Virus record (IMG/VR): IMGVR_UViG_2671180603_000006
Direction: 5' to 3' (one strand)
Source: a virus
Lineage: Duplodnaviria; Heunggongvirae; Uroviricota; Caudoviricetes
DNA length: 13,295 bases
Position numbers: made by a program. Positions 9,001 through 12,000 of this stretch are shown piece by piece; within the stretch, counting starts at the first letter, position 1, and each line of letters begins with the position of its first letter.

Positions 9001-12000
9001 GTGCTCAGTGATTTCTGCTCGGCGATGCGCTGTATGCCGGTATGGAACGGCCAGACGCTGACGTTTGTTCAGGACCGCCCGTCGGATGTGGTGTGGCCGT
9101 ACACCAACAGCGATGTGGTGGTGGATGATAACGGCGTGGGTTTCCGCTACAGCTTCAGTGCCCTGAAGGACCGGCACACGGCGGTGGAGGTGAATTATAC
9201 CGACCCGCAGAACGGCTGGCAGACCTCCACGGAACTGGTGGAAGACCCGGAAGCCATACTGCGCTACGGACGCAACCTGCTGAAGATGGACGCGTTCGGC
9301 TGTACCAGCCGCGGTCAGGCCCACCGTGCCGGACTGTGGGTGATAAAGACCGAACTGCTGGAAACGCAGACGGTGGATTTCACGCTCGGGTCTCAGGGGC
9401 TGCGGCACACACCCGGTGACATCATTGAAATCTGTGATAACGACTATGCCGGGACCCTGACCGGCGGACGTGTCCTGTCCATTGATGCTGCCACCCGCAC
9501 TCTGACGCTGGACCGTGAAGTGACACTTCCGGAGACCGGTGCCGCCACGGTGAACCTGATTAACGGCAGCGGTAAGCCGGTGAGTGTGGACATCACCGAA
9601 CACCCCGCGCCGGACCGGATACAGGTCAGTACCCTGCCTGATGGTGTGGAGACATACGGGGTGTGGGGACTCTCCCTGCCGTCACTGCGCCGTCGCCTGT
9701 TCCGCTGTGTCTCCGTCCGGGAAAACACGGACGGCACCTTTGCCATCACGGCGGTGCAGCACGTACTGGAAAAAGAAGCCATCGTGGATAACGGTGCCCG
9801 CTTTGAGCCGCAGTCAGGTTCCCTGAACAGCGTCATCCCACCGGCAGTGCAGCACCTGACGGCCAGTATCTGGCGCAGGCGAAATGGGACACGCCGCGGG
9901 TGGTGAAGGGTGTGCGCTTCAGTCTGCGCCTGACCAGTGGTAAGGGAACGGATGCCAGACTGGTGACCACCGCCATCACCGCAGACACGGAGCACCGTTT
10001 CAGCGGCCTGCCGCTCGGGGAATACACCCTGACGGTGCGGGCGATAAACAGCTATGGCCAGCAGGGTGAACCTGCCACCACCACCTTCCGGATTGCCGCA
10101 CCGGCAGCACCGTCGCGGATTGAGCTGACGCCGGGCTATTTTCAGATAACCGCCACGCCGCATCTTGCGGTTTATGATCCGACGGTACAGTTTGAGTTCT
10201 GGTTCTCGGAAAAGCGGATTGCGGATATCAGGCAGGTTGAAACCAGCGCCCGCTATCTTGGCACGGCGCTGTACTGGATAGCCGCCAGTATCAATATCAA
10301 ACCGGGCCATGATTATTACTTTTATATCCGCAGTGTGAACACCGTTGGCAAATCGGCATTCGTGGAGGCTGTCGGTCGGGCGAGCGATGATGCGGAAGGT
10401 TACCTGGATTTTTTCAAAGGAGAGATAGGGAAAACACATCTGGCTCAGGAGCTGTGGACGCAGATTGATAACGGTCAGCTTGCGCCGGACCTGACTGAAA
10501 TCAGGACGTCCATTACGGATGTCAGCAATGAAATCACGCAGACAGGATTGCCGCACCGGCAGCACCGTCGCGGATTGAGCTGACGCCGGGCTATTTTCAG
10601 ATAACCGCCACGCCGCATCTTGCGGTTTATGATCCGACGGTACAGTTTGAGTTCTGGTTCTCGGAAAAGCGGATTGCGGATATCAGGCAGGTTGAAACCA
10701 CAGCACGCTATCTTGGCACGGCGCTGTACTGGATAGCCGCCAGTATCAATATCAAACCGGGCCATGATTATTATTTTTACGTTCGCAGTGTGAACACCGT
10801 TGGCAAATCGGCATTCGTGGAGGCTGTTGGTCAGCCGAGTGATGATGCATCCGGTTATCTGGATTTTTTCAAAGGCGAGATAGGGAAAACCCATCTGGCT
10901 CAGGAGCTGTGGACGCAGATTGATAACGGTCAGCTTGCGCCTGACCTGGCTGAAATCAGGACGTCCATTACGGATGTCAGCAATGAAATCACGCAGACCG
11001 TCAATAAGAAACTGGAAGACCAGAGTGCGGCAATTCAGCAGATACAGAAGGTTCAGGTTGATACAAATAATAACCTGAACAGCATGTGGGCTGTGAAGCT
11101 GCAGCAGATGCAGGACGGACGCCTTTATATCGCGGGTATTGGTGCCGGTATTGAGAACACCCCTGACGGCATGCAGAGTCAGGTGCTGCTGGCGGCGGAC
11201 AGGATTGCGATGGTTAATCCTGCGAATGGCAACACAAAACCGATGTTTGTTGGTCAGGGCGATCAGATATTCATGAACGACGTGTTCCTGAAACGCCTGA
11301 CGGCCCCCACCATTACCAGCGGTGGAAATCCATCGGCATTTTCCCTGACTCCGGACGGAAAGCTGACCGCTAAAAATGCGGATATCAGTGGCAGTGTGAA
11401 TGCGAACGCCGGGACGCTCAACAATGTCACGGTAAATGAAAACTGTACGATTAAGGGCATGCTGGAGGCGACTCAGGTCAGAGGTGACTTCGTTAAAGCT
11501 GTATCCAAATCATTTCCGAAACAGGCTGGTACGTGGGGTAACACGGAAACACCAAACGGGACGGTTACAGTCACCATAAGCGATGATCATAACTTTGACC
11601 GCCAGATTATTATTCCGCCCATTATTTTTAACGGTATAGCGTATGACGATCCGGGGAGCGGAAATAACCCAGGAGGCACGCGATACACGGGTTATGGTTT
11701 TGAAGTTCGCAAAAACGGCGTATTAATCGCATCCAGAGAAACTAAAGGTGCCATTCCCGGTAGTTACAGTGCAGTTATTGATATGCCTAGTGGTGGTGGT
11801 AGCGTCACTCTGGAGTTTAAGATTTTCCAGAAAGGCAATCAGGGGGCAGGCAATATCACCGACTGTACGGTGATTGTGACCAAAAAAGCGGCTTCCGGCA
11901 TCAGTATTCGTTGAAATATTTATAACCCCAATAAATGGCGTCAGGAATGACGCCTTTTTTATTGCAGAAAAGCGAGAGGTAATTATGCGTAAAGTTTGTG

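What the first reader, a model, noticed from the sequence alone, without database searches (positions are those of the whole stretch)
10090..10999. Out-of-frame 455 bp imperfect tandem duplication inside J
Two adjacent 455 bp copies (10090-10544 and 10545-10999) differ at about 17 positions, so this is not an exact duplication. Most differences change amino acids (for example IRSVNT vs [15 protein letters not shown] vs [15 protein letters not shown] vs DLAEIR). This pattern fits unequal or illegitimate recombination between two diverged J alleles, such as paralogous lambdoid prophages in one genome. Because 455 is not divisible by 3, the copy 1 to copy 2 junction shifts the frame (stop at 10581-10583).
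Basis: seen in the sequence. Interest (0 to 1): 0.6.

Follow-up and report, generated by a model that had tools for sequence, protein, structure and literature searches.

The report
Scaffold-gap artefact, not a J duplication
The apparent 455-bp duplication inside the phage tail-tip gene J is an artefact: two draft-assembly contigs from two different prophage J genes were abutted across an unsequenced 'N', so it is not a real duplication.

Summary
The repeat is in the window text as described: 10090-10544 and 10545-10999, period 455, 95% identity, no indels. It is not a physical duplication.

- **Source.** The window is the whole of contig CXDK01000122.1 of draft assembly GCA_001252175.1. This is probably Shigella sonnei.
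- **The junction is a gap.** In the public record the junction base, 10544, is 'N'. The window shows 'A' there, and that is the only difference in 13,295 bases.
- **Left of the N** is the J pseudogene of prophage A. Five N-free assemblies of the same prophage match it at 99.9% and then continue as a single-copy J into a different lom and stf.
- **Right of the N** is the 3' third of J, then lom and stf, of a second prophage. It matches S. sonnei ATCC 29930 (complete genome) at 99.75%, where a different J 5' part lies upstream and there is no repeat.
- **Mosaic ends.** Both copies mix variants of the J paralogues carried by this lineage. One 4-site block is swapped reciprocally between the copies.
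- **Recurrence.** A sister draft has the same kind of join across 'NNNNN', with period 475.
- **No junction elsewhere.** No contiguous junction exists in 5,426 complete E. coli genomes.

The join, however, was made by software. Interest is very low.

The parts
1..10543 (+). Contig A. Tail module of prophage A (Z, U, V, G, T, H, M, L, K, I) and the 5' three-quarters of its J pseudogene.
   Evidence: Pfam calls on the contig genes. It is 99.87-99.91% identical over its whole length to L013-L015 and L017-L021, and every alignment stops at 10543.
7990..10543 (+). J allele A, a pseudogene fragment. It has ATG at 7990, an in-frame TGA at 8191-8193 (TGG in E. coli relatives), and a 22-bp deletion at 9855/9856 between CTGACGG direct repeats.
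   Evidence: Both lesions are present in all sister assemblies checked: L013, L014, L015 and L017.
10090..10543 (+). 'Copy 1': the 3' end of contig A. It is a mosaic of paralogue variants in the order A|B|A|B|A|D.
   Evidence: 9 of the 10 mismatches to the sister assemblies fall in these 454 bases (binomial P about 5e-12).
10544..10544 (.). Scaffold gap. It is 'N' in CXDK01000122.1 and is shown as 'A' in the window. Neither parental allele has A at this position: A has T, and B and D have C.
10545..10999 (+). 'Copy 2': the 5' end of contig B. It is a mosaic in the order A|B|B|A|B.
   Evidence: 6 of the 7 mismatches to S. sonnei ATCC 29930 fall in the first 240 bases (P about 3e-6). Site table.
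10545..13295 (+). Contig B. Prophage B: the 3' third of J allele B (ORF 10790-11914), a truncated lom (11985-12467, 160 aa) and the 5' part of stf (12566 to the contig end).
   Evidence: 99.75% identical to L004 (CP026802.1, S. sonnei ATCC 29930) 9756-12506, and also to L008 and L010.
10581..10583 (+). TGA that ends ORF 9900-10583. It is reached only because of the artificial join. The same TGA is reached in ATCC 29930 because of a 1-bp deletion 35 bp upstream of the unit.

Best explanation
The 455-bp 'imperfect tandem duplication' is not a feature of the bacterial chromosome. It is the place where a scaffolding and gap-filling step of a short-read assembly abutted two contigs across a gap written as a single N.

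Contig A (1-10543) is the tail module and J pseudogene of one lambdoid prophage. Contig B (10545-13295) is the J 3' end, lom and stf of a second lambdoid prophage in the same genome, probably Shigella sonnei.

Both contig ends run into the same 455-bp stretch of J. There the paralogues are about 96% identical, whereas they are about 75% identical just upstream of it. The stretch therefore appears twice. Because the ends were built through a repeat shared by at least three J paralogues, each end is itself a patchwork of paralogue variants.

Shown here: the N at the junction, the different genomic partners of the two halves, the absence of the repeat in N-free and finished assemblies, the mosaic ends, and a sister draft with the same kind of join at another register.

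Inferred: that the assembly came from a Velvet + SSPACE + GapFiller type pipeline, and which step produced the single N.
For: 1. The window equals contig CXDK01000122.1 of GCA_001252175.1. Its only difference from the record is 10544, which is N in the record and A in the window.
2. Window 1-10543 matches eight other assemblies at 99.87-99.91%, and the match ends at 10543. In five N-free assemblies from other accession series (L014, L015, L017, L020, L021), J then continues in single copy as a 509/513-aa ORF into a 199-aa Lom and a 918-aa Stf (845 aa in L020, where the contig ends). It does not continue into the window's 160-aa Lom and 1027-aa-type Stf. TRF finds no repeat in L014.
3. Window 10545-13295 matches the complete genome CP026802.1 (S. 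sonnei ATCC 29930, named in PMC9430107) at 99.75%. There the unit is preceded by a different J 5' part, 75% identical to the window's, and there is no repeat.
4. Allele A's true continuation after the unit is only 93.5% identical to window 10999+ for 458 bp, then unalignable, then about 85%.
5. Mismatches to the sister assemblies cluster in the copies: 9 of 10 for contig A and 6 of 7 for contig B (P about 5e-12 and 3e-6).
6. Every deviant base equals the base of another J paralogue of the same lineage. The block 10319-10328 / 10774-10783 is swapped reciprocally between the copies.
7. All switch points lie in invariant stretches of 42-68 bp. No switch lies within a stretch of 17 bp or less.
8. 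Sister draft L016 has allele A, then NNNNN, then allele B, with TRF period 475.
9. There is no contiguous junction in 5,426 complete E. coli genomes. The 30-mer with the window's A at the N position is absent from the GTDB species representatives. Among the fetched loci only the window's own record carries the junction.
10. The Sanger pipeline paper says that SSPACE and GapFiller are greedy and 'can lead to false joins', that joins are written as N gaps, and that its 299 S. sonnei assemblies average 405 contigs (PMC5320598). GapFiller extends contig edges base by base with 30-mers and majority voting, and it closes a gap only if the extensions overlap and the length fits the estimate (PMC3446322).
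Against: - I could not read the sequencing reads, so the absence of junction-spanning reads is inferred from the N and was not observed.
- I could not confirm which software produced GCA_001252175.1.
- A 1-base gap could in principle sit inside a real duplication that the assembler nearly closed.
- The reciprocal block swap is shared with L016. It could be a real sub-lineage variant rather than mis-threading.
- The preference of switch points for long invariant stretches is also what length-proportional recombination would tend to give, so that point is only 'consistent with' the artefact.
Confidence: 0.94

Rival explanations
1. The link between contig A and contig B is real, but the duplication is not. 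In this isolate the two prophages recombined homologously and in register within J, giving a hybrid J and a chromosomal rearrangement. The assembler could not merge the two non-identical contig ends and left them overlapping around an N.
For: - A scaffolder needs several read pairs to make a join (PMC5320598).
- A second draft of the same series (L016) also links allele A to prophage B downstream.
- From general knowledge: rearrangement between prophages and IS copies is common in Shigella and E. coli.
Against: - Copy 1 is not a simple A-to-B switch. It runs A|B|A|B|A|D.
- Other drafts of the same series (L013, L018, L019) and all N-free assemblies keep allele A joined to its own 3' end.
- Read pairs falling in the 156-bp and other identical stretches shared by the paralogues can create such links falsely.
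- Even if true, the finding as described (an out-of-frame tandem duplication) would still be an artefact.
Confidence: 0.08
2. This is a physical out-of-register (455 bp) illegitimate recombination between the J genes of two prophages, or between a phage and a prophage. It left a true imperfect tandem duplication with one unresolved base.
For: - The two copies do come from different J paralogues.
- A 3-bp CCG microhomology exists at the two parental sites (sequence context).
- J is already a pseudogene, so nothing would select against the event.
Against: - The junction itself is unsequenced: it is N in the record.
- The junction is absent from every other assembly examined and from 5,426 complete E. 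coli genomes.
- Both copies are mosaics with a reciprocal swap. One crossover cannot produce that.
- An analogous join at a different register sits on another N run in L016.
Confidence: 0.03
3. The repeat is a natural feature of J proteins: an in-frame internal domain repeat, here slightly degenerate.
For: J contains several Ig/FN3-like domains. Pfam families Ig_J, Ig_J_second and a faint fn3 hit products of this region.
Against: - Intact J genes carry this 455-bp unit only once. Examples are the 1163-aa J in E. coli 2013C-4991 and phage ASU11, and the 1159-aa J in L006.
- TRF finds no repeat in L014 or L004.
- 455 is not a multiple of 3.
Confidence: 0.005

Closest known systems
False or unresolved scaffold joins in short-read assemblies (scaffolder plus gap-filler, such as SSPACE + GapFiller in the Sanger prokaryote pipeline; PMC5320598, PMC3446322)
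   Same: - An N sits exactly at the join.
- The two sides map to different loci in a finished genome.
- Both contig ends lie in a multi-copy repeat (prophage J).
- The ends carry mixed paralogue variants.
- The same kind of join recurs at another register in a sister assembly.
   Different: I could not confirm the software used for this particular assembly, nor see the reads. Which step left the single N is inferred: either a negative gap estimate with no exact overlap, or a gap filled from both sides without closure.
Lambda gpJ, the tail tip / host specificity protein of lambdoid prophages of E. coli and Shigella
   Same: - Gene order is Z-U-V-G-T-H-M-L-K-I-J-lom-stf.
- Pfam families FNIII-A_GpJ, Phage-tail_3, Ig_J, Ig_J_second, Phage_Tail_Tip and Ig_GpJ_C hit the fragments.
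- It is 93-94% identical in DNA to the intact J of E. coli 2013C-4991 and phage ASU11.
   Different: Here J is a decayed pseudogene, with a nonsense codon and a 22-bp deletion. In the window it is fused in silico to the 3' third of a second J paralogue.
Genuine recombination between co-resident lambdoid prophages (mosaic J alleles, prophage-mediated rearrangements)
   Same: Several J paralogues with patchwise similarity coexist in one genome. They are about 75% identical upstream of the unit and about 96% identical inside it.
   Different: No sequenced junction supports a recombinant here. Homologous exchange would occur in register and would not duplicate 455 bp.

Membership tests
Physical tandem duplication | The junction between the copies is covered by determined sequence | tested here: not met
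   Position 10544 is N in CXDK01000122.1 and was replaced by A in the window.
Physical tandem duplication | The same junction is seen in independent assemblies of the same element | tested here: not met
   Eight assemblies with allele A and eight with allele B lack it. There was no match for a 70-bp junction probe at E<=1e-12 in 5,426 complete E. coli genomes.
Physical tandem duplication | Reads or amplicons span both copies | not testable with these tools
Scaffold-join artefact | A gap character sits exactly at the join | tested here: met
   There is a single N at 10544. The analogous join in L016 is NNNNN at 12320-12324.
Scaffold-join artefact | The two sides belong to different loci in finished or N-free assemblies | tested here: met
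   The left side continues into Lom-199 and Stf-918 in L014, L015, L017 and L021 (845 aa in L020, where the contig ends). The right side is preceded by a different J 5' part in CP026802.1.
Scaffold-join artefact | The contig ends lie in a multi-copy repeat and show mixed paralogue variants | tested here: met
   At least three J paralogues (A, B, D, plus a further variant C) are present in the lineage. Copy 1 runs A|B|A|B|A|D and copy 2 runs A|B|B|A|B, with a reciprocal swap at 10319-10328 / 10774-10783.
Scaffold-join artefact | The assembly was made by a pipeline that scaffolds and gap-fills | tested here: inconclusive
   Records of this accession series that are called contigs contain N runs of 1 to about 290 bases. 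That is consistent with the pipeline of PMC5320598. No paper naming this accession was found.
Lambda gpJ (tail tip / host specificity protein) | gpJ domain families, in order, downstream of tail genes L, K and I | tested here: met
   The precomputed Pfam hits on the contig's genes are FNIII-A_GpJ, Phage-tail_3, Ig_J, Ig_J_second, Phage_Tail_Tip and Ig_GpJ_C. RefSeq annotates the homologue as gpJ.
Lambda gpJ (tail tip / host specificity protein) | An uninterrupted reading frame of about 1130-1165 codons | tested here: not met
   There is a stop at 8191-8193 and a 22-bp deletion at 9855/9856, both independent of the artefact.

The most novel reading that the evidence does not exclude
The join is physical. 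In this one isolate an illegitimate, 455-bp out-of-register exchange between the J pseudogenes of two resident prophages fused prophage A's tail module to prophage B's J 3' end, lom and stf. That left an imperfect tandem duplication whose single junction base the assembler could not call.
Probability: 0.03. Interest if true: 0.2.

Novelty: not a real feature. Interest (0 to 1): 0.03.

Why it matters
Biologically it matters little. The duplication should not be interpreted, annotated or counted as a J variant.

Its value is practical:
- Records called contigs in this accession series are in fact gap-filled scaffolds. Their joins inside prophage repeats are unreliable.
- The window supplied to the first-stage reader had its N silently replaced by 'A'. 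That hid the one character that would have exposed the artefact. Scans of draft assemblies should keep or flag Ns.
- The real biology underneath is ordinary: several decayed lambdoid prophages with J pseudogenes in a Shigella-like genome.

Tried and rejected
- **Exact 30-mer junction scan of the GTDB species representatives.** No match. The test is weak because it used the spurious 'A', and because Shigella and E. coli have few representatives there.
- **300-bp and 70-bp junction probes at default or loose E-value.** These were uninformative. The tool joins the two half-matches, which lie 454 bp apart in reverse order, into one 'place'. I repeated the probe at E<=1e-12, where only a contiguous match can pass, and found none.
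- **Post-duplication divergence.** Rejected. The copies are closer to other extant alleles (97.8% and 99.6%) than to each other (95.4%). Their differences are mostly synonymous (11 of 17 codons).
- **A natural in-frame domain repeat.** Rejected, because intact J genes carry one copy.
- **Papers naming the assembly accessions.** None found, so organism and pipeline are inferred from near-identity to S. sonnei ATCC 29930 and from the N-containing 'contigs'.
- **Rfam scan of the window.** Nothing.
- **Is allele A's true 3' end on another contig of the same assembly?** I could not check this.

Full report
**1. The observation**

Tandem Repeats Finder reports a single array in the window: 10090-10998, period 455, 2.0 copies, 95% matches, no indels, score 1678.

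My column-by-column comparison of 10090-10544 with 10545-10999 gives 21 differences, clustered in blocks. The last of them is the junction base 10544.

In the J reading frame 17 codons differ. Eleven changes are synonymous and six change the amino acid.

The frame does change at the junction. ORF 9900-10583 stops at 10581-10583, and the J frame resumes in another frame that stays open to 11912.

**2. Context**

The window is a lambdoid tail module: Z, U, V, G, T, H, M, L, K, I, J, lom, stf (Pfam calls).

Intact relatives have a 3492-bp J (1163 aa) with one copy of the unit. Examples are E. coli 2013C-4991 and phage ASU11, both at 93.6-93.9% identity.

- TGG->TGA at 8191-8193.
- A 22-bp deletion at 9855/9856 between CTGACGG direct repeats.

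**3. Where the window comes from, and the decisive fact**

An exact-protein look-up shows that the window is the whole of contig CXDK01000122.1 (13,295 bp) of draft assembly GCA_001252175.1.

Comparing the record with the window base by base gives one difference. Position 10544 is 'N' in the record and 'A' in the window. The window contains only A, C, G and T, so the N was replaced before the first-stage reading.

The 'junction of the tandem duplication' is therefore a 1-base scaffold gap. 'A' is not what either parent has at that position. Allele A has T, and alleles B and D have C.

**4. What lies on each side**

*Left side (1-10543).*
- The 547-aa J fragment occurs on at least 24 contigs of other assemblies.
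- Eight of them align to window 1-10543 at 99.87-99.91%, and every alignment stops at 10543.
- Five are N-free assemblies from other accession series: L014, L015, L017, L020 and L021.
- In those five, J simply continues in single copy as a 509/513-aa ORF. It is followed by a full-length 199-aa Lom and a 918-aa Stf (845 aa in L020, where the contig ends).
- TRF finds no repeat in L014.
- That continuation is only 93.5% identical to window 10999+ for 458 bp, then unalignable, then about 85%.

*Right side (10545-13295).*
- The 374-aa ORF, the 160-aa truncated Lom and the 1027-aa Stf occur together in eight other assemblies.
- One of these is the complete genome CP026802.1, at 99.75% identity. A paper names it S. 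sonnei ATCC 29930 (PMC9430107).
- There the unit is preceded by a different J 5' part, 75% identical to the window's. No tandem repeat is found.
- In the sister drafts of the same series, this piece begins just after N runs at varying positions. These correspond to window 10575, 10722 and 10751.

**5. The copies are patchworks of paralogues**

Contig A differs from the N-free sister assemblies at 9-11 sites, and 9 of these lie in its last 454 bases. Contig B differs from ATCC 29930 at 7 sites, and 6 of these lie in its first 240 bases. The binomial P values are about 5e-12 and 3e-6.

A site table shows that every deviant base equals the base of another J paralogue found in this lineage. The paralogues are:
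- A, taken from the N-free assemblies.
- B, taken from ATCC 29930.
- D, the J that sits next to a 199-aa Lom in L005, L006 and L008 (a 1159-aa gene in L006).

| Copy | Order of paralogue blocks |
|---|---|
| Copy 1 | A \| B \| A \| B \| A \| D |
| Copy 2 | A \| B \| B \| A \| B |

The four-site block 10319-10328 / 10774-10783 is exchanged reciprocally between the two copies.

All switch points lie in invariant stretches of 42-68 bp. No switch falls within a stretch of 17 bp or less. That is what k-mer-guided extension through a shared repeat would give. Recombination would show a similar bias, so I treat this only as consistent.

One crossover cannot produce these patterns, and gene conversion is not reciprocal.

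**6. Recurrence at another register**

Sister draft L016 (GCA_001259615.1) shows allele A running 38 bp past the unit, then NNNNN (12320-12324), then allele B from unit position 23. TRF calls it a period-475 repeat.

The calls do not support reading two 'duplications' of different length, each centred on an N run, in two assemblies of the same series, as biology. They fit a scaffolding signature.

**7. Absence elsewhere**

- A 70-bp probe across the junction has no match at E<=1e-12 in 5,426 complete E. coli genomes. At that threshold only a contiguous match can pass.
- Looser searches return only the two halves, 454 bp apart in reverse order. That is the signature of a single copy.
- Among all the loci I fetched, only the window's own record has the junction.

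**8. How it most likely arose (inferred)**

The 'contigs' of this accession series contain N runs, so they are gap-filled scaffolds.

The Sanger high-throughput pipeline is Velvet, then SSPACE, then GapFiller. It was applied to 299 S. sonnei isolates, with a mean of 405 contigs each. Its paper states that these greedy tools 'can lead to false joins' and that joins are written as N gaps (PMC5320598).

GapFiller extends both contig edges one base at a time with 30-mers and majority voting. It closes a gap only if the extensions overlap and the length fits the estimate (PMC3446322).

The likely sequence of events is as follows. Read pairs falling in stretches identical between J paralogues linked the end of prophage A's contig to the start of prophage B's contig. 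The ends were then extended or left overlapping in J coordinates. They are only about 96% identical, so they could not be merged, and a single N remained.

From my own knowledge, SSPACE writes a single n when it estimates a negative gap and finds no exact overlap. I could not verify that in a held paper.

I could not confirm which software made this assembly, and I could not see the reads.

**9. Rivals**

- **(a) The link is real but the duplication is not.** This would be an in-register hybrid J from prophage-prophage recombination. It is possible (about 0.08). However, copy 1 is not a simple A-to-B switch, and other assemblies keep allele A with its own 3' end.
About 0.03, for the reasons in sections 3-7.
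- **(c) A natural in-frame repeat of J.** Refuted by the single-copy intact homologues.

**10. Verdict**

The repeat is real as text but is not a genomic feature.

- Novelty: not a real feature.
- Interest: about 0.03.
- Practical lesson: Ns must not be replaced by bases before scanning.

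Noticed in passing
window 10544: The public record has 'N' here and the window shows 'A'. The window contains only A, C, G and T, so gap characters were replaced before the first-stage reading. That hides scaffold joins.
   Followed up: yes
window 8191-8193 and 9855/9856: J allele A is a genuine pseudogene. It has TGG->TGA (W->stop) at 8191-8193 and a 22-bp deletion between CTGACGG direct repeats. Both are shared by all the sister assemblies checked, including N-free ones. The 547-aa fragment occurs on at least 24 contigs.
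   Followed up: yes
window 11985-12467; L004 11196-11678: The lom of prophage B is truncated to 160 aa, against 199 aa in relatives. The reading frame is lost after '...NTSLA'. The same truncation is in S. sonnei ATCC 29930.
   Followed up: partly
L004 (CP026802.1) about 9721: In the finished S. sonnei ATCC 29930 genome, J allele B has a 1-bp deletion in a G run 35 bp upstream of the 455-bp unit. J is therefore split there too (721 aa + 374 aa), and it stops at the same TGA as window 10581-10583. It could be a real frameshift or a homopolymer error of long-read sequencing.
   Followed up: partly
L016 11848-12792; L018 11554; L019 13306: Sister drafts of the same accession series carry other pseudo-duplications or odd joins at N runs inside or next to J. 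L016 has a period-475 repeat around NNNNN. In L018 a second J C-terminal fragment follows a single N.
   Followed up: partly
L016 1905-9384: In L016, the Z-to-H genes have the protein lengths of prophage B (192, 131, 246, 140, 144 and 852 aa). M-to-J are allele A type, and there is no N between them. This is either a real mosaic prophage or a chimeric contig.
   Followed up: no
window 2272-2278: There is a GGGAAAG heptamer near the end of the G-like ORF (1865-2296), just before the T-like ORF (2323-2736). This is the position of the known lambda G/GT programmed -1 frameshift site.
   Followed up: no
window 7647-7989: A 343-bp spacer with no convincing gene lies between I and J. It is also present in the E. 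coli relatives (L001 8048-8389). It holds a perfect 13-nt stem with a 4-nt loop at 7857-7886: AAACCCCGGTATC / GATACCGGGGTTT. There was no Rfam match.
   Followed up: no
window 10086-10093 and L004 9752-9759: Position 10090 is a mosaic boundary between J paralogues. Alleles A and B are about 75% identical upstream of it and about 96% identical from 'TTCCGGATTGCC' onward. That is why contigs of different prophages collide exactly there.
   Followed up: partly
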